Source: a virus (taxonomy: Duplodnaviria; Caudoviricetes). Taken from it: a stretch of DNA of 25,852 nt. Numbering within the stretch: position 1 is the stretch's first letter; each line of letters begins with the position of its first letter. This document shows positions 2,381 to 10,922 of this stretch, piece after piece. The DNA is taken from positions 1 to 25,852 of the IMG/VR virus record IMGVR_UViG_3300034357_000535. One strand, given 5' to 3'. The notes beneath the pieces are model-generated. The model worked only from the letters and a program-made list of their open reading frames with translations, had not been told where the DNA came from and ran no database searches. Made by a program: the position numbers and the translations under genes.

Positions 2381-3520
2381 ATGAATACAATACAAGAGTT
2401 TCAAAATAAAGGATATGTTCATCTTAAAAGCGCATTAGATAAACAATCTTGTGAAATTTTAACTAATGAATTAAAAACATTAGTAAAAGCAAAAAAAACA
2501 ATAAAAGATTCTCAATGCCCATTATCTGAAGCGGTGCATGGCGCTCAAATATTTGATAACCTACTTGAAGCTATGTTGCCTTATTTTGAGCAACAATTAG
2601 GTTTAAAACTTTACCCTACTTATTCTTATGCTCGCCTTTATAATCAACAAGGTGAAGAATTAAAAAATCATAGAGATAGACCAGCTTGCGAAATATCTGC
2701 CACCATTACATTAGGATTTGAAGGTGATGTTTGGTCAATTTATATGGGCGATGATGAAGATAAAACGCTTAATGTAAATAAAATAGATATGGAAATAGGC
2801 GATGCCGTTATGTATCGTGGTATGGATAAATGGCATTGGCGTGAACCTTACTTTGAGGGAAAATGGCAAGCTCAAGTATTTTTACATTATGTTGATCAAA
2901 ATGGCCCACACGCTGAATGGAAATATGATAAGCGTGAATCATTAGGTATTAGTAAAACTATTCAAAATGAAATACAATCTTTTGATGAATGTTATAAAAT
3001 AGATAATGCAATTTCTGAAGGTTTTTGTAAAAAACTTATTGAAGAATATGCAAAGTCTGAAGTAGAAAAGTTACCGCCTGTTATTGGGGGTGGGGAAGGA
3101 TCAATAAATTTAGATATTCGTAATGTTCAAAGATTGCAATTACCTTTATTTGCTGGCATTGGTGCAACTTTAACTTCTATTGGATTACAAGTTAATCATC
3201 AAGTATGGCAATATCATATTACGCATTCTAATCAATCAGAATTTTTAATGTATGATATCAAAGGTAAATATGAAACTCATACTGATACTTTTCATGCAAG
3301 ATCAAACGAAACTAGAAAATTAACTGTGTTAGCATTTTTAAATGATGATTTTGAAGGCGGTAAGTTTTACATACAAAATAGCCATGAAAGAATGTATCCA
3401 CAACAAACGCCTGGCACAGTTTTAGTATTTCCTTCATTTATGCCACATGGCGTTGAGCCTGTAACAAAAGGCATAAGATATTCTATAGTTACATGGATGG
3501 TGGGTGAATATTTTAAATAA
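2381..3520 (+). CDS. Tandem two-domain 2OG-Fe(II) oxygenase (prolyl-hydroxylase-like)
   Basis: Domain 1: HRD...HWRE...QVFLHY. Domain 2: HTD...RKLT...FEGG...HGVEPVTKGIRYSIVTW. Each has an HxD...H facial triad. Confidence 0.85.
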   Translation: MNTIQEFQNKGYVHLKSALDKQSCEILTNELKTLVKAKKTIKDSQCPLSEAVHGAQIFDNLLEAMLPYFEQQLGLKLYPTYSYARLYNQQGEELKNHRDRPACEISATITLGFEGDVWSIYMGDDEDKTLNVNKIDMEIGDAVMYRGMDKWHWREPYFEGKWQAQVFLHYVDQNGPHAEWKYDKRESLGISKTIQNEIQSFDECYKIDNAISEGFCKKLIEEYAKSEVEKLPPVIGGGEGSINLDIRNVQRLQLPLFAGIGATLTSIGLQVNHQVWQYHITHSNQSEFLMYDIKGKYETHTDTFHARSNETRKLTVLAFLNDDFEGGKFYIQNSHERMYPQQTPGTVLVFPSFMPHGVEPVTKGIRYSIVTWMVGEYFK

Positions 3521-4086: not shown

Positions 4087-6834
4087 ATGGCTAATTATTC
4101 TATTGATGTTATTGACAGTAATAATATAACTGTTGAAGTAACACCTACTGCTACTACTGAAATTACTATTGATCGTGGTGTTACAGGCGCATCAGGCATA
4201 TCGGGCTATTCAGGTTTTTCAGGTTACAGTGGAGCAACTGGAGCTGGAACTTCAGGTGTATCAGGCTATAGTGGTTATAGCGGAGCTAGCGGATTTTCAG
4301 GAGCGCAAGGTGCTTCAGGGTTTAGCGGACAATCAGGTTATAGCGGAACTAACGGAGCTAGTGGTATTAGCGGATATAGTGGCGCTAATGGTGCTTCAGG
4401 GTTATCAGGTTTTTCAGGCATATCAGGTTGGTCAGGATTTAGCGGTATCAATGGATTAAGTGGCTATAGTGGCATCAATGGATTTAGCGGAATATCAGGT
4501 TATTCAGGCTATAGTGGCGCGGTAGGTTCTCAAGGAACATCAGGTTTTAGTGGTTATAGCGGTGCAGTTGGAGCTTCAGGCGCATCAGGTATAAGTGGAT
4601 GGTCAGGCATTAGTGGAACTAATGGAGCTTCAGGTATTAGCGGATTTAGTGGCTATAGTGGCTATAGTGGAAGTGGAATAAGCGGTTGGTCAGGCGCTAT
4701 AGGAGCATCAGGAACATCAGGTTATAGTGGCGCTAACGGAACTAACGGCGATTCAGGAATTAGTGGCTTTAGTGGATATTCAGGCACATCAGGCTTTTCG
4801 GGTTTTAGTGGCGTTAATGGATTAAGTGGATATTCAGGAATAAATGGTTCTTCAGGGCTATCAGGTTTTAGTGGCTTTAGTGGACAAGTTGGTCTATCAG
4901 GTTTTAGTGGAGCTACAGGCGCACAAGGCACAAGTGGTTTTAGTGGATTTAGTGGAATTAGTGGTGTCAATGGCGCAAGCGGAACAAGCGGATTTAGTGG
5001 TTATTCAGGAATAAATGGATCAAGCGGAATATCAGGCTTTAGCGGTATTAATGGTTTAAGTGGTTATAGCGGAATTAATGGTGCTACAGGTGCATCAGGT
5101 TTATCAGGATATAGTGGCTTTAGCGGCGCAATAGGTATATCGGGCTTTAGTGGAATTTCAGGATATAGTGGAATATCAGGAGCTAATGGCGCAAACGGAG
5201 CGTCAGGAACTTCAGGCTATTCAGGTTATTCAGGTGCTACAGGCGCACAAGGTCAATCATCAAGTTTCTTTGAATATCATGCTCACACAGGATCAACTTC
5301 AGGCTATCCAGGCGATGGCGCGGTTATTTGGAACAATGCAACTCAAGTTAGTGCTACTCAAATTAATGTTAGTCATCTGACTGATAGTAATGTTGATATT
5401 GATATTTTCTTATCTAGCTTGCAACCAAGTGAAACTTTTGTTCTTCAAGATAGAACTGCAAGTGCAAATAATCAATATTGGTTAATTACAGGTGCTACAA
5501 CAAATATTAATGGCGGAACTTCCACTAGCTACTGGACTATTCCTGTAAGTTTAATTTCTTCAGAGGGAACAGGCACTACTGGATTTTCAAACAATCATAA
5601 TTTATTTTTAGCAATTGTTAATGGCGTATCAGGATATTCAGGATATAGTGGATACAGTGGATTTAGCGGTTTTAGTGGCGCACAAGGAACTAGCGGATTT
5701 TCAGGATATAGTGGAGCAGTCGGGGCTTCAGGCACTAGCGGTTACAGTGGCTATTCAGGATCGGGCATTAGTGGATATTCAGGTGCATCAGGTATTTCAG
5801 GATATAGTGGCATAAATGGCGCGTCAGGCATTAGTGGTTTTAGTGGAACTAATGGAACAAATGGTGATAGTGGCTTTAGTGGTTTTAGCGGTGCGGTAGG
5901 CACTAGCGGATTTAGCGGATATAGTGGGGCGGTAGGCACAAGTGGCTTTAGTGGTATAAGCGGATATTCAGGAACAAATGGAACTAACGGAGCTTCAGGC
6001 ATATCAGGTTACAGTGGATTTAGTGGCGCAGTAGGTCTTTCAGGATTTAGTGGTATCAACGGAGCATCAGGTATCAGTGGTTTTAGTGGGGCTAATGGCA
6101 CTAATGGAGCATCGGGCATTAGTGGCTATTCAGGATTTTCAGGTAGTGGCATTAGTGGCTTTTCAGGATTTAGCGGAATATCAGGTTTTTCAGGAACTAA
6201 CGGCACGAATGGAGCTAGTGGTATATCAGGCTATTCAGGTTTTTCAGGCAGTGGAATAAGCGGTTATAGTGGGTTTAGCGGAAGTGGTATTAGCGGATTC
6301 AGTGGATTTAGCGGAACTAATGGTTCTAACGGAGCTTCAGGTATAAGTGGTTATTCAGGTTTTAGTGGATCAGGTATTTCAGGATATTCAGGTTTTAGTG
6401 GACTGCAAGGATTATCAGGCTATAGCGGTATCAACGGAACTTCAGGCATTAGCGGCTTTAGTGGAGCTAATGGTGCTAGTGGTTTTAGTGGATTTAGTGG
6501 CGCAGTTGGAACAAGCGGATTTTCAGGAATTAGTGGATTTAGTGGTATAAGCGGATATTCAGGAAGTGGCGTATCAGGCTTTTCAGGATTTTCAGGCTAT
6601 AGCGGAAGTGCGCCTAGCATTACAAGTAAAATGATTTATGATACATTTACTGCAACCGCATCTCAAACTACATTTACCACATCAACTACTTACACTTCAG
6701 GCAAAATAGAAGTGTTTGTAAATGGTGTAAAATATAGAAACGCAACTGATGTAACTGTAACTTCAGGCACTTCAGTTGTTATGGCTACAGGATTAACATT
6801 AAATGATTTAGTTGATTTAGTATATCCAATTTAA
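4087..6834 (+). CDS. Collagen-like Gly-X-Ser repeat fibre protein (915 aa)
   Basis: Two long G-X-Y tracts dominated by GYS/GFS/GIS/GAS/GTS, split by a ~120-aa globular domain; C-terminal FTATASQTTF...VFVNGV module. Confidence 0.8.
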   Translation: MANYSIDVIDSNNITVEVTPTATTEITIDRGVTGASGISGYSGFSGYSGATGAGTSGVSGYSGYSGASGFSGAQGASGFSGQSGYSGTNGASGISGYSGANGASGLSGFSGISGWSGFSGINGLSGYSGINGFSGISGYSGYSGAVGSQGTSGFSGYSGAVGASGASGISGWSGISGTNGASGISGFSGYSGYSGSGISGWSGAIGASGTSGYSGANGTNGDSGISGFSGYSGTSGFSGFSGVNGLSGYSGINGSSGLSGFSGFSGQVGLSGFSGATGAQGTSGFSGFSGISGVNGASGTSGFSGYSGINGSSGISGFSGINGLSGYSGINGATGASGLSGYSGFSGAIGISGFSGISGYSGISGANGANGASGTSGYSGYSGATGAQGQSSSFFEYHAHTGSTSGYPGDGAVIWNNATQVSATQINVSHLTDSNVDIDIFLSSLQPSETFVLQDRTASANNQYWLITGATTNINGGTSTSYWTIPVSLISSEGTGTTGFSNNHNLFLAIVNGVSGYSGYSGYSGFSGFSGAQGTSGFSGYSGAVGASGTSGYSGYSGSGISGYSGASGISGYSGINGASGISGFSGTNGTNGDSGFSGFSGAVGTSGFSGYSGAVGTSGFSGISGYSGTNGTNGASGISGYSGFSGAVGLSGFSGINGASGISGFSGANGTNGASGISGYSGFSGSGISGFSGFSGISGFSGTNGTNGASGISGYSGFSGSGISGYSGFSGSGISGFSGFSGTNGSNGASGISGYSGFSGSGISGYSGFSGLQGLSGYSGINGTSGISGFSGANGASGFSGFSGAVGTSGFSGISGFSGISGYSGSGVSGFSGFSGYSGSAPSITSKMIYDTFTATASQTTFTTSTTYTSGKIEVFVNGVKYRNATDVTVTSGTSVVMATGLTLNDLVDLVYPI
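4177..5259 (+). repeat. Gly-X-Ser triplet tract 1 (~360 aa)
   Basis: Gly every third residue with occasional GSG/GAG interruptions; synonymous codons are diversified. Confidence 0.9.
5623..6609 (+). repeat. Gly-X-Ser triplet tract 2 (~330 aa)
   Basis: Same pattern, with recurring blocks such as GTNGASGISGYSGFSGSGISG. Confidence 0.9.
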
Positions 6835-6843
6835 AGGATTAAT

Positions 6844-7485
6844 ATGGACAAGATAACACAAGATGCTTTGGCATACTTTAAGAAGCATGATCCAAATCAT
6901 TATAGATTTTTACTTACAAATAATTATGAGCGAGCGGTTTTTCTTAAAGGCGATCCCGTTTATCCTAGAGAAGCCACTCGTTATTTATGGGCTAATCGCA
7001 ATCTAAAAGAAAACTTACTTGGACAAAATGTCCTTGAAATAGGTTGCTCTACAGGTTACGGCTCTCAATTCCTTCCAAACAATATTAATTATATGGGATT
7101 AGATTACGATCCTCTTATTATAGAGGTCGCACGCGAACAGGAATGGGGCTTAAACGCATCTTTTACTAACGCTGATATTAACACCTATCCTTTAGCACAA
7201 TACGACACCATAATCGCTTTTGAATTGATTGAGCATCTTGATAACGGACTTGAGATAGCTCAAATGCTAAAGAATCATTGCAGACGACTTCTTCTTACCA
7301 CTCCGCATAATGAGCCTAAAGGTTTTTGGGGCGAACATCATAAGCTTCATGGCTTAAATGAATCACATTTTCCTGACTTTCAATACAACTATATTAATGA
7401 GCATGGTTATATTTCAGAAACCTTACCTGAAATTAATAATGTCAATAAATTTAACCTTATGATTATGCGGTGGGATCGTGGATAA
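6844..7485 (+). CDS. Class I SAM-dependent methyltransferase
   Basis: Motif I VLEIGCSTGYG, acidic GLD, YDTIIAFELIEHL and LLTTP, typical of small-molecule/glycan methyltransferases. Confidence 0.85.
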   Translation: MDKITQDALAYFKKHDPNHYRFLLTNNYERAVFLKGDPVYPREATRYLWANRNLKENLLGQNVLEIGCSTGYGSQFLPNNINYMGLDYDPLIIEVAREQEWGLNASFTNADINTYPLAQYDTIIAFELIEHLDNGLEIAQMLKNHCRRLLLTTPHNEPKGFWGEHHKLHGLNESHFPDFQYNYINEHGYISETLPEINNVNKFNLMIMRWDRG

Positions 7486-8446
7486 AGTTCTTTGCTCGGT
7501 AGCAACTCGTGGTCGTTATCAAACTACTTTACCTTTAACGCTTAACGCTATAATTAATCAGACAAAAAAGGTTGATAAATTAGTTATCTTTGATGACAAT
7601 GATGAGCCACAAGATATGAGAAATGAGTTGGTGTATAGCTACTTTTTTCAAATGCTGGATATCAAAGGCATTCAATGGGAATGGGTTTATGCTCAAAAGA
7701 AAGGTCAGCATCATATTCATCAAATGGCTAACACTATGGGCTTTGATTGGGTATGGCGAGTTGATGATGATGCGATACCCGAACCCAATGTCTTACAAAC
7801 TTTATTTAATTACACAAGCAAAAAAGTAGGTGCAGTAGGTGGCTCAATACTAACACCGCCATTACAATTTGAAGGCTTTAAACCTACAGGCAAAATAGAA
7901 AATATAAATACAGAGCCTAACATTCAATGGTCATTTATTCACAAGGTCAAAGAAGTTGAGCATCTTCATTGTTCTTTTCTTTATCGCGCTGGAGTGCATG
8001 ATTACAATCTAGGCCTTTCAAGGGTAGCGCACCGAGAAGAAACTTTATTTACTTATGGATTATACCTAAAAGGATATACAATTCTTGCAGCTCCACATGC
8101 AAATACTTGGCATCTTAAAAACCCACAAGGTGGAATTAGATCAGAATCAAATCAACAACTATATCACCATGATGAATTAATCTTTAGAAACACTTTAGCT
8201 TATAAAGACAAAAAGATTGTAGTTTTAAATGTAGGTATGGGCGATCATATTGTATTTAAAAATGTATTGAAGGACATTACAAACGCTGAAGTATTTACTT
8301 GCTTTCCTGATATAGTTCCTGGAAGGCCAATATCTGAAGCTATGTCTTTATTTGGTGACATGGATCAATGGAGTATCTATAAGAAAATGGCTGAATGGAA
8401 TTGGACTGGTAGTTTAGAAAAAGCATTTAGAAAGCTATACCTATGA
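7478..8446 (+). CDS. GT2 (GT-A) glycosyltransferase fused to a GT9-like N-terminal segment
   Basis: VATRGR, IFDDND, RVDDDAIP (DxD), HREET; C-terminal VLNVGMGDHIVF resembles the GT9 G(L/I)GD motif; GTG start overlapping the methyltransferase. Confidence 0.8.
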   Translation: MDKVLCSVATRGRYQTTLPLTLNAIINQTKKVDKLVIFDDNDEPQDMRNELVYSYFFQMLDIKGIQWEWVYAQKKGQHHIHQMANTMGFDWVWRVDDDAIPEPNVLQTLFNYTSKKVGAVGGSILTPPLQFEGFKPTGKIENINTEPNIQWSFIHKVKEVEHLHCSFLYRAGVHDYNLGLSRVAHREETLFTYGLYLKGYTILAAPHANTWHLKNPQGGIRSESNQQLYHHDELIFRNTLAYKDKKIVVLNVGMGDHIVFKNVLKDITNAEVFTCFPDIVPGRPISEAMSLFGDMDQWSIYKKMAEWNWTGSLEKAFRKLYL

Positions 8447-9597: not shown

Positions 9598-9802
9598 ATA
9601 TTCGGAAGCTGGTAAAGGATCAACTAATAAGCTTAAACAAAAAAGCTTGTATGATGAGAACTACGAAAAGATTTGGGGTAGTAAAAAGAATAAGCTTTAT
9701 GAGGAACGCTATTATGATTCCGATGAAACAACTTCATGGGATCAAGATAAGGCTGATATGATTGGTCTTAATAACAATACAGGCGATCACTATATAAAAT
9801 AA
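9590..9802 (+). CDS. Hypothetical protein (70 aa)
   Basis: GKGS...Y.ENYEKIW motif of small phage proteins; overlaps the HNH stop. Confidence 0.55.
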   Translation: MSKYSEAGKGSTNKLKQKSLYDENYEKIWGSKKNKLYEERYYDSDETTSWDQDKADMIGLNNNTGDHYIK

Positions 9803-9830
9803 AAAAGGGGCAATTAAGCCCCTTAATTAT
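9801..9830. terminator. Intrinsic terminator between convergent units (strong on the minus strand)
   Basis: AAGGGGC-AATTAA-GCCCCTT stem with A6 on the left (U6 on the minus strand) and TTAATTATTT on the right. Confidence 0.8.
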
Positions 9831-9878
9831 TTGTGAATACCATTTTCTGAAGAACGCTATTCACCTTATCTAAAATAA

Positions 9879-9950
9879 CTATTTATTCATTACATACATA
9901 GTTACTTCAAATCCAAATCTCATTTCTGTAGCTGATGGAGTAGTCCACAT
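9879..9950 (-). CDS. pqqA: Coenzyme PQQ precursor peptide PqqA (23 aa; not in ORF track)
   Basis: The minus strand reads MWTTPSATEMRFGFEVTMYVMNK*, with the PqqA W..P and RFGFEVTMY signature (ExxxY). SD AAGGA lies 8 nt upstream of the ATG. Confidence 0.95.
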   Translation of the reverse strand: MWTTPSATEMRFGFEVTMYVMNK

Positions 9951-10036
9951 AGTATTTATCCTTTATCTGTAACAAGCAAAATTACTTGTTATGCAAATTA
10001 TGGGCTTTTTGCAAGACAAAACCATCAGTAAAATCA

Positions 10037-10273
10037 TTAAAATGGCATTGCTGAATCAGTTGCACTTGTATTTGATCCTGCACCATCTTTAGGTTGCGGT
10101 TCTCTCATTGTTACCCAGCCGTCAAAATTGACAGGGATAGATTCAATAAGAAGTGAAGTGCCGCCTTGTTTATTAGACATTGCAACTCCAACTTTAGTCC
10201 AGCGAGCTTTTGTTTCGCCTTCTTTGTTTACATACTCGCCTGTTTTAGCGATTAGATCATGGGTTATTGCCAT
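10037..10273 (-). CDS. Small phage ssDNA-binding-like protein
   Basis: GEY...GETKARWTKVG core; flexible tail ending in PF; follows ERF and the exonuclease. Confidence 0.6.
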   Translation of the reverse strand: MAITHDLIAKTGEYVNKEGETKARWTKVGVAMSNKQGGTSLLIESIPVNFDGWVTMREPQPKDGAGSNTSATDSAMPF

Positions 10274-10922
10274 TTTGTATTTCCTTTAAGTTATTAACAG
10301 TAGTTTCTATTTCCTGTAAGAATAAGATCACCTTATCTTCCATTGTTTTAATATATTCATCATCACGATAAATACGCTTCACAAATCCTTCTAATCCAGT
10401 AAGGTCGGGATCAAAAGAAACGAGATCACAAAATTCCATTTCAGGCATACAGGCTAATTGCCACATGCATTGGTCGTAATATTGTTCTAATTGTTTGCCA
10501 CCTGTTAAATAATTATCCAAATGGTTACTTGGATCGGGCGCTTTTAGCTCAATTAAATATGGCTTGTCAGCAAATACAATTCCATCAGGACTGCATTGAG
10601 CATTTTCAATTGTAGGATGTTTAACAATGGCTACTTGATCCACAAAGACATTATGCTTAACTTCATACCAAGAACGCGCCAACGGCTCAAGTTCGATACC
10701 TCTTATCATTGCGGGCGATTTCCAAGTATCTAATTTTTTACTTGTTAATCTTTCCCTGATTAATTCATTTTTATATTTTCTACGGGTTAATGATTCGCCA
10801 CCTGATCTGCCTTCAGTAAGCAAATCTGCAATACGGCTACCGCCTATCTTCCCGATGCGGAGCGCTTGCCATTTTTCCGATCCCTGAATTACATCCCTAA
10901 TAATTCTTTCTTCTAATTTCAT
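10257..10922 (-). CDS. YqaJ/lambda-type exonuclease
   Basis: QGSEKWQALRIGKIGGS, GIELEPLAR, SPDG, IELKAP, YYDQCMWQL. Confidence 0.9.
   Translation of the reverse strand: MKLEERIIRDVIQGSEKWQALRIGKIGGSRIADLLTEGRSGGESLTRRKYKNELIRERLTSKKLDTWKSPAMIRGIELEPLARSWYEVKHNVFVDQVAIVKHPTIENAQCSPDGIVFADKPYLIELKAPDPSNHLDNYLTGGKQLEQYYDQCMWQLACMPEMEFCDLVSFDPDLTGLEGFVKRIYRDDEYIKTMEDKVILFLQEIETTVNNLKEIQNGNNP

What the first reader, a model, noticed from the sequence alone, without database searches (positions are those of the whole stretch)
9879..9950. Stand-alone phage-encoded pqqA (PQQ cofactor precursor peptide)
Seen: an intact 23-codon minus-strand ORF, MWTTPSATEMRFGFEVTMYVMNK, with a strong SD, placed last in the recombination operon; no pqqB-E in the window. 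Established: PqqA is the ribosomal precursor whose Glu and Tyr (ExxxY) are cross-linked by PqqE/PqqD and consumed one peptide per PQQ; PQQ is the cofactor of methanol dehydrogenases MxaF/XoxF. From memory, the peptide is nearly identical to Methylophilaceae PqqA. Inference: the phage supplies the stoichiometric substrate to the host maturation enzymes to sustain methanol oxidation during infection, a 72-nt auxiliary metabolic gene that gene callers miss. I cannot confirm how far this has already been described.
Basis: partly seen in the sequence, partly recalled or inferred. Interest (0 to 1): 0.9.

Follow-up and report, generated by a model that had tools for sequence, protein, structure and literature searches.

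The report
Phage pqqA with captured host operator
A phage related to one that infects methanol-eating lake bacteria carries an intact, conserved 23-codon copy of pqqA behind a DNA box that also precedes the host's own PQQ genes, so it likely uses the host's regulator to supply precursor for the cofactor PQQ; a viral pqqA was first reported in 2020.

Summary
Confirmed. 9879-9950(-) encodes a true PqqA (PF08042 41.3 bits, TIGR02107 38.5; both over cut-off) in a close relative of Methylophilaceae phage P19250A (TerL 95%). It is kept in 21 of 22 syntenic relatives with enough flank (dN/dS 0.11). It sits unannotated in nine cultured Methylophilaceae phage records, and about 3,000 IMG/VR stretches hold its motif; no fetched viral locus held pqqB-E. 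Viral pqqA is already in print (Lake Baikal, 2020), although that paper said P19250A lacks it. This scan found the gene before in many other genomes.

Added here: the gene is not just the operon's tail. It has a predicted promoter with a 15-bp palindromic box that also precedes host pqqA, pqqB and a PqqU-like receptor gene. The box is at 58 of 93 phage copies (shuffles 1.6). Phages put it 22-23 nt before the -10 (36 of 44); hosts put it 45-46 nt before (86 of 88). Hosts keep several dispersed pqqA copies, so supply in trans is plausible. A benefit through methanol oxidation is inferred; expression was not shown. Interest moderate.

The parts
10025..10039 (-). 15-bp palindromic box TAATGATTTTACTGA, predicted activator site; its first three bases are the stop codon of the upstream gene
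   Evidence: Best non-coding hit in the window of a matrix trained on host pqqA upstream regions (15.1 bits; higher or similar scores fall inside the repeat-rich coding gene at 4087-6834). Single match at up to 2 mismatches. Present in all 22 syntenic copies (21 identical, 1 variant) while the spacer behind it differs.
9997..10002 (-). -10-like hexamer CATAAT, 22 nt after the box (predicted promoter)
   Evidence: Sequence. Box + 22 nt + xAxAAT in 17 of 22 syntenic copies. Spacing peak at 22-23 nt across phages. The plain sigma-70 scan did not list it.
9970..9991 (-). Hairpin at the predicted 5' end of the mRNA
   Evidence: Fold of 9795-10010, z -5.15. Leaders fold at z <= -2 in 31 of 34 phage and 45 of 87 host copies.
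9959..9963 (-). Shine-Dalgarno AAGGA
   Evidence: Sequence. SD-like word at 119 of 120 IMG/VR copies.
9879..9950 (-). pqqA, 23 aa; Glu15 (9908-9906) and Tyr19 (9896-9894) form the ExxxY core
   Evidence: PF08042 and TIGR02107 over cut-off; dN/dS 0.11.
9833..9864 (-). 3' hairpin
   Evidence: Fold. Similar hairpins follow pqqA in P19250A, L036, L049 and L061.
9805..9824 (.). Two-way intrinsic terminator, shared with the converging gene; also present in the relative that lacks pqqA
10037..10273 (-). Upstream 78-aa gene of the ERF/YqaJ block (context, not part of the cassette)
   Evidence: ORF; PHROG family of unknown function.

Best explanation
This is an intact, conserved phage copy of pqqA in a small cassette (operator box, -10, leader hairpin, SD, gene, terminator) that is likely switched on by the host's PQQ-gene activator and would feed extra precursor peptide to the host's PqqD/E/B/C enzymes, likely keeping the methanol dehydrogenase XoxF supplied with PQQ during infection. 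Shown: the gene, its conservation, the shared box and its shifted position. From the literature: PqqE with PqqD cross-links Glu and Tyr of PqqA, then protease, PqqB and PqqC make PQQ, so each PQQ uses up one peptide while the enzymes are reusable. That explains why phages carry only the 72-nt consumable part. Inferred: the box binds an activator, probably a NarL/LuxR-type response regulator found in all Methylophilaceae tested; the phage form, one good site next to the -35 region instead of the host's distal site plus weak proximal half-site, still recruits it; and the extra PQQ raises phage yield.
For: Identity. Phage origin: TerL 95.1% to P19250A, same gene order and same pqqA position. Selection: 21 of 24 YqaJ-found relatives carry it; 2 end too early and 1 lacks the whole cassette cleanly. 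dN/dS is 0.11 over 18 distinct sequences found without using the peptide. Spread: 9 cultured Methylophilaceae phage records, from 35-44 kb phages to T4-like Melnitz; about 3,000 IMG/VR stretches (estimate from 3 of 64 parts); 51 upstream and 57 downstream neighbour families over 87 loci, from capsid, terminase, portal, tail and replication modules. Partners are in the host: PqqE in 5 of 5 genomes, pqqB-E confirmed in G001. 81 of 81 Methylophilaceae have pqqA, 78 with two or more matches. Only 15 of 80 host loci have pqqB nearby, and all three G001 copies lie far from pqqB-E. Box: 58 of 93 phage upstream regions against 1.55 in shuffles and 9 of 210 other phage upstream regions; replicated in a separate set, 25 of 36 against 0.5. 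In G001 it precedes all three pqqA, pqqB and a PqqU-like receptor gene. Link to XoxF: 6 of 9 viral xoxF loci hold pqqA, three of them 200-300 nt upstream on the same strand. xoxF is the top transcript of OM43 (PMC5120137, passages).
Against: No direct evidence of expression: RNA-library contigs of close relatives reach only 29 and 20 bases into the gene, and the deep short contigs inside it may be host mRNA. The host already has about three copies, so extra dosage may add little. In Acetobacter, pqqAB overexpression raised PQQ only 29% against eightfold for pqqABCDE (PMC7936290, passages). One relative lacks the gene (L265). 28 of 93 phage copies have no box. Host xoxF shows no box upstream. 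The regulator is assigned only by adjacency in one Burkholderiales locus and by conservation. Low dN/dS could partly reflect repeated recapture from hosts.
Confidence: 0.7

Rival explanations
1. The peptide is made into PQQ, but the benefit is not XoxF flux: PQQ serves as a redox protectant, feeds another quinoprotein, or acts as a signal that holds the host PQQ regulon in a state that favours the phage.
For: The hosts tested hold a second PQQ-dehydrogenase-like gene besides xoxF. The box marks PQQ synthesis and uptake genes, not xoxF. Peroxiredoxin-like genes lie near pqqA in some large phages. An antioxidant role of PQQ is recalled, not tested here.
Against: pqqA lies directly before xoxF in several T4-like contigs. 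XoxF is the dominant transcript of these hosts.
Confidence: 0.14
2. The cassette is a decoy: at high phage copy number the box soaks up the host activator, or the peptide occupies PqqD/PqqE, lowering host PQQ synthesis.
For: The phage box is rearranged relative to the host's. Phage peptides vary more than host peptides (53 against 19 distinct).
Against: The most common phage peptides are identical to host ones, and Glu and Tyr were intact in all syntenic copies. The window has a single box, fixed at promoter distance and followed by leader and SD. Phages that also carry xoxF would harm themselves.
Confidence: 0.06
3. The gene is a near-neutral passenger, often picked up because hosts carry many small copies, and kept intact by repeated recombination with host and phage alleles.
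For: Spacer and leader are swapped among phages with 93-100% identical YqaJ. One relative lacks it. Hosts have up to 12 matches.
Against: Close relatives of host PqqE were not found in IMG/VR, and no pqqB-E lies near any fetched viral copy. The promoter layout is phage-specific, 36 of 44 against 2 of 88, which points to selection in phages. The window's copy is closer to other phage copies (up to 66 of 66 nt) than to any host copy sampled (59 of 66).
Confidence: 0.08
4. The locus is host DNA joined by mis-assembly, or an attachment site of a temperate phage that integrates into host pqqA.
For: The peptide is host-like and the record is a metagenomic fragment.
Against: It holds the same position in cultured P19250A and 21 other contigs. 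No tyrosine integrase in 5 of 5 cultured genomes. No host genes flank it.
Confidence: 0.02

Closest known systems
Cellular PqqA of Methylophilaceae (PF08042 / TIGR02107), especially the dispersed stand-alone copies
   Same: Same length, W-x-x-P leader and RFGFE-VTMY core; one residue from the commonest host peptide. Stand-alone unit with the same upstream box, leader hairpin and terminator.
   Different: Phage-borne, with no pqqB-E found. The strong box lies 22-23 nt before the -10 instead of 45-46 nt, and the distal site is absent.
Viral PqqA of Lake Baikal population VP_266 (Coutinho et al. 2020, PMC7678222)
   Same: Phage-encoded PqqA in a predicted Methylophilaceae phage, with the same proposed role.
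   Different: That is a T4-like metagenomic phage that also carries methanol dehydrogenase; no xoxF is in this fragment of a P19250A-like phage. The paper states that P19250A lacks these genes, but it has pqqA. The passages I saw give no prevalence, selection or promoter analysis.
Cyanophage psbA (recalled analogy, not tested)
   Same: A phage copy of the one fast-consumed part of the host's main energy pathway, spread over unrelated phage groups.
   Different: PqqA is a substrate peptide destroyed to make a cofactor, not an enzyme subunit. No infection data exist for it.
NarL/LuxR-type activation of PQQ genes (Pseudomonas ErbR/PedR systems; recalled)
   Same: A palindromic box before PQQ synthesis and uptake genes; a NarL-family regulator lies next to pqqA in one Burkholderiales locus.
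   Different: The binding protein is not shown, and I found no paper describing this box.

Membership tests
PqqA | Score above curated HMM cut-offs | tested here: met
   PF08042 41.3 vs 21.1; TIGR02107 38.5 vs 20
PqqA | Glu-x-x-x-Tyr near the C-terminus with an N-terminal leader | tested here: met
   E15 and Y19; roles per PMC10906245 passages
PqqA | Short stand-alone ORF with ribosome-binding site | tested here: met
PqqA | Maturation genes pqqB-E available | tested here: met
   Absent from the window and from the viral loci fetched; present in the inferred host family. Met in trans only, as for most host copies.
PqqA | Converted to PQQ by PqqDE, protease, PqqB and PqqC | not testable with these tools
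   Needs complementation or an in vitro assay
Auxiliary metabolic gene | Lies inside a true viral genome, flanked by viral genes | tested here: met
Auxiliary metabolic gene | Intact and under purifying selection in viruses | tested here: met
   21 of 22 relatives with enough flank; dN/dS 0.11
Auxiliary metabolic gene | Expressed during infection | tested here: inconclusive
   RNA-library contigs touch leader and gene start but do not bridge by the 31-base rule
Auxiliary metabolic gene | Changes host metabolism or phage yield | not testable with these tools
   Bench work needed
Host PQQ regulon promoter | 15-bp palindromic box upstream | tested here: met
   15.1 bits on a host-trained matrix
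Host PQQ regulon promoter | Strong box 45-46 nt before the -10 | tested here: not met
   The box is 22 nt before the -10 and the distal score is about -17
Host PQQ regulon promoter | Bound by the host regulator | not testable with these tools
   Candidate only
Phage attachment site | Integrase in the phage | tested here: not met
   PF00589 in 0 of 5 cultured genomes; serine integrases not tested

The most novel reading that the evidence does not exclude
pqqA is the near-universal, overlooked auxiliary gene of Methylophilaceae phages, their counterpart of cyanophage psbA. Unrelated phages have repeatedly rebuilt its promoter so that the host's PQQ-regulon activator binds one strong site next to the -35 region and drives a short, stable mRNA for a cofactor precursor. 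That would keep methanol oxidation running in infected cells, and the gene would double as a host marker for thousands of uncultured phages.
Probability: 0.4. Interest if true: 0.75.

Novelty: new variant of a known kind. Interest (0 to 1): 0.57.

Why it matters
Methylopumilus and OM43 bacteria are abundant methanol oxidisers of lakes and coasts, and their cultured phages were described with no methylotrophy genes. If nearly all carry a PQQ precursor wired to a host regulator, infected cells may keep oxidising methanol, and a phage supplying the peptide substrate of a host maturation pathway becomes testable in existing phage-host pairs. The peptide plus box could also help assign hosts to thousands of uncultured viral contigs. 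The box defines a small PQQ regulon that I did not find described. The idea of a viral pqqA is not new, which caps the score.

Tried and rejected
Expression: two read-layings gave only contigs. Pieces of close relatives lie across the genome and cannot rank genes or show strand. The high depth inside pqqA may be host or other-phage mRNA, so I do not count it. Rfam: nothing near threshold in 9600-10300. PDB: no sequence match. PHROGs has no family for the peptide. Identity of the box: it resembles a Fur core (recalled). In G001 the intergenic hits were PQQ genes plus a rhodopsin-like gene, a cytochrome b561 and a formate dehydrogenase-region gene, not iron-uptake genes, so Fur is disfavoured but not excluded. 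The two-site host layout suggests LysR, but I saw no symmetric T-N11-A in the consensus. No regulator family recurs beside host pqqA except an OxyR-like gene at 9 of 80 loci (label from my reading of the sequence). A genome-wide box search in five cultured phages used a pattern that misses the P19250A site itself, so it is uninformative. dN/dS of the IMG/VR sample (0.12) is biased by the search pattern and is not relied on. The two Acinetobacter 'phage' hits (E 0.2) were left out of the count of nine. Cultured phages listed in NCBI taxonomy but not hit (HIM624-A, MEP431-434, Venkman EXVC038S, MG-MTP1, RSA-MFP1) may be absent from the collection, so 'all cultured phages' is not shown. A review (PMC7736144) was not held. 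No structure or complex prediction was run.

Full report
Observation. The 72 bases at 9879-9950(-) read MWTTPSATEMRFGFEVTMYVMNK*, with AAGGA 8 nt upstream. The peptide passes both curated PqqA models: PF08042 41.3 bits (cut-off 21.1) and TIGR02107 38.5 bits (cut-off 20). The window is a whole IMG/VR record, about 67% complete. It carries terminase, portal, head protease, lysozyme, ERF and YqaJ genes. Its TerL is 95.1% identical to that of Methylophilaceae phage P19250A and below 60% for the other 2,586 records matched. P19250A has the same gene order and an unannotated pqqA in the same gap. The host is therefore inferred to be a freshwater Methylophilaceae of the LD28/Methylopumilus type (P19250A host per PMC7678222, passage).

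Spread in phages. tblastn over 50,697 phage records gave 12 hits. Nine are cultured Methylophilaceae phages (P19250A, Venkman, MEP301, MEP401, MEP402, four Melnitz), one is an uncultured spring phage, and two are weak Acinetobacter hits that I set aside. None is annotated as pqqA: five show no feature, and in the two 'hypothetical' records I opened (Melnitz-1 and the spring phage) the annotated ORF is on the opposite strand. Other cultured phages named in NCBI taxonomy gave no hit and may not be in the collection. A nine-codon pattern matched an estimated 3,000 stored IMG/VR stretches (3 of 64 parts scanned). Of the 120 returned, 119 gave intact 23-25 aa ORFs and one has N bases but is otherwise intact; 119 have an SD-like word. 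A second pattern (TLY variant) gave 120 loci, 116 with intact short ORFs. Over 87 loci with long flanks there were 51 upstream and 57 downstream neighbour families and 28 neighbourhood groups, including capsid, terminase, portal, tail and T4-like replication genes (86 selected proteins scanned). Host PqqB-E proteins matched none of 151 viral loci or the window (40 of these loci are under 630 nt), while PqqB matched 15 of 80 host loci as a control. They also matched none of the second set. A scan for close PqqE relatives in IMG/VR found none, and one for XoxF found nine (both reach close relatives only).

Selection. To avoid bias I fetched relatives by the neighbouring YqaJ gene. Of 24 loci, 21 carry intact pqqA about 300 nt downstream, two end too early, and one (L265) lacks promoter, gene and 3' hairpin while keeping the terminator. 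Pooled pairwise dN/dS over 18 distinct sequences of this clade is 0.11; hosts give 0.07.

Hosts. All 81 Methylophilaceae genomes tested have pqqA, 78 with two to twelve matches, and the eleven 1.2-1.4 Mb genomes have two or three. In Ca. Methylopumilus universalis (G001) the three copies lie at 416, 457 and 1,186 kb, and pqqBCDE at about 577-580 kb. A lone pqqA acting in trans is thus the normal host arrangement, and its retention at three copies in streamlined genomes suggests that dose matters (inference). Multiple copies are also described for Hyphomicrobium (PMC9851590, passages).

The promoter. Upstream regions of host and phage copies share over-represented words that resolve into a 15-bp palindrome, T[C/A]ATGA-WWW-TCAT[G/T]A. 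A matrix trained only on hosts finds it at 90 of 100 non-redundant host regions (circular by construction) and 58 of 93 phage regions. Shuffles give a mean of 1.55 (maximum 5), and other phage upstream regions give 9 of 210, several of which share the intergenic stretch with pqqA. It is at 59 of 77 copies with the Methylophilaceae-type peptide and 3 of 16 others. The separate TLY set gives 25 of 36 against 0.5 in shuffles. In hosts the strong box lies 45-46 nt before a -10 hexamer, with a weak half-site 23 nt further on. In phages the box usually sits at that proximal place, 22-23 nt before the -10, with no distal site: 36 of 44 anchored phage copies against 2 of 88 host copies (Fisher p 3e-22, overstated because the sequences are related). 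Not all fit: 28 of 93 phage copies had no box, 8 had the host-like spacing, 6 fitted both and 16 neither. Among the 22 syntenic copies the box is constant while the spacer and leader come in several unrelated versions; 17 keep exactly 22 nt to an xAxAAT hexamer. Leaders fold into hairpins in 31 of 34 phage copies, as here. In G001, 29 sites match at up to one mismatch against 4 for the reversed control. I inspected them: most are intragenic, and the intergenic ones precede all three pqqA, pqqB, a PqqU-like receptor gene, a rhodopsin-like gene, a cytochrome b561 and a formate dehydrogenase-region gene. None precedes xoxF. A NarL/LuxR-family response regulator lies directly before pqqA in a Burkholderiales locus that has the box, and it has an orthologue in 41 of 41 Methylophilaceae. 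An earlier AI note suggested such a regulator; binding is untested.

Mechanism. PqqE with PqqD cross-links Glu and Tyr of PqqA; a protease, PqqB and PqqC then yield PQQ (PMC10906245, passages). The peptide is consumed and the enzymes are not, so after takeover of host expression the precursor would run out first (inference). xoxF is the most abundant OM43 transcript (PMC5120137, passages), and pelagic strains have only XoxF4-1 (PMC6794327, passages). Six of nine viral xoxF loci carry pqqA within the fetched flank, and a seventh contig holds it further off (L058). In three it lies 200-300 nt upstream on the same strand behind the box; the two whose flanks I scanned have T4-like genes. Against a large effect: hosts already have several copies, and pqqAB overexpression raised PQQ only 29% in Acetobacter (PMC7936290, passages). 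No tyrosine integrase is in five cultured genomes, which argues against an attachment site.

What is known. Coutinho et al. 2020 (PMC7678222, passages; the held supplement is only 572 characters, so their tables were not seen) reported PqqA in the T4-like population VP_266 and proposed boosted methanol oxidation. They also wrote that P19250A encodes none of these genes, which contradicts. PMC13188868 (passages) lists viral pqqA, pqqD and pqqE among phosphorus genes in reservoir sediments. The isolate papers for Venkman, MEP301 and MEP401/402 have no occurrence of 'pqq' in the main text, and the Melnitz paper has one, in the medium recipe (term searches). The original P19250A paper was not in the listing and Ge et al. 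2015 on the pqqA2 promoter was seen only as a reference; either may bear on the box. Searches for the prevalence or the box found no such report in this open-access library. Earlier AI notes of this scan describe the same gene in at least 95 genomes.

Verdict. Real gene, correct family, known idea. The breadth, the correction for cultured isolates and above all the captured, repositioned host operator make it a new variant of a known kind. Interest 0.57.

Noticed in passing
window 9833-9864 (-); P19250A (L001), L036, L049, L061: A 3' hairpin with a constant middle (TTCYTCAGAAAAT) and differing stems follows pqqA in phages with different gene neighbourhoods; it may be a small RNA element. No Rfam match.
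   Followed up: partly
L265:3800-3960: A close relative (80% YqaJ identity) lacks the cassette from the upstream stop codon to the pqqA stop; a natural control for fitness tests.
   Followed up: partly
L251-L273, between box and SD: Spacer and leader come in several unrelated versions between the constant box and the gene, and similar versions occur in unrelated phages, which suggests promoter module swapping.
   Followed up: partly
L011, L018, L020, L026, L033, L037, L044, L052, L060: Viral PqqA variants ending in RLGFE(V/I)TMYF-K/S lack the box and often sit tightly inside gene runs; probably phages of another, unidentified host group.
   Followed up: no
L459:4460-5001, L460, L461, L457: Phage contigs with box, pqqA and xoxF in tandem on one strand; L459 and L461 have T4-like neighbours.
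   Followed up: partly
G001:C1:443342 (L311) and 1202991 (L320): Box-like sites upstream of a rhodopsin-like gene and a cytochrome b561 in Methylopumilus, which may extend the regulon.
   Followed up: no
window 4087-6834 (+): 915-aa G-x-S repeat protein with a Pfam collagen match; the gene at the same place in P19250A is annotated as tape-measure protein, which looks doubtful. It is followed by methyltransferase and glycosyltransferase genes (6844-8446).
   Followed up: no
window 2381-3520 (+): 379-aa protein with a C-terminal 2OG-Fe(II) oxygenase domain in the tail region.
   Followed up: no
KX815270.1 P19250A_0031 (L001:3046-3702): Annotated as diguanylate cyclase/phosphodiesterase, but it holds the position of the YqaJ exonuclease gene of this window.
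   Followed up: no
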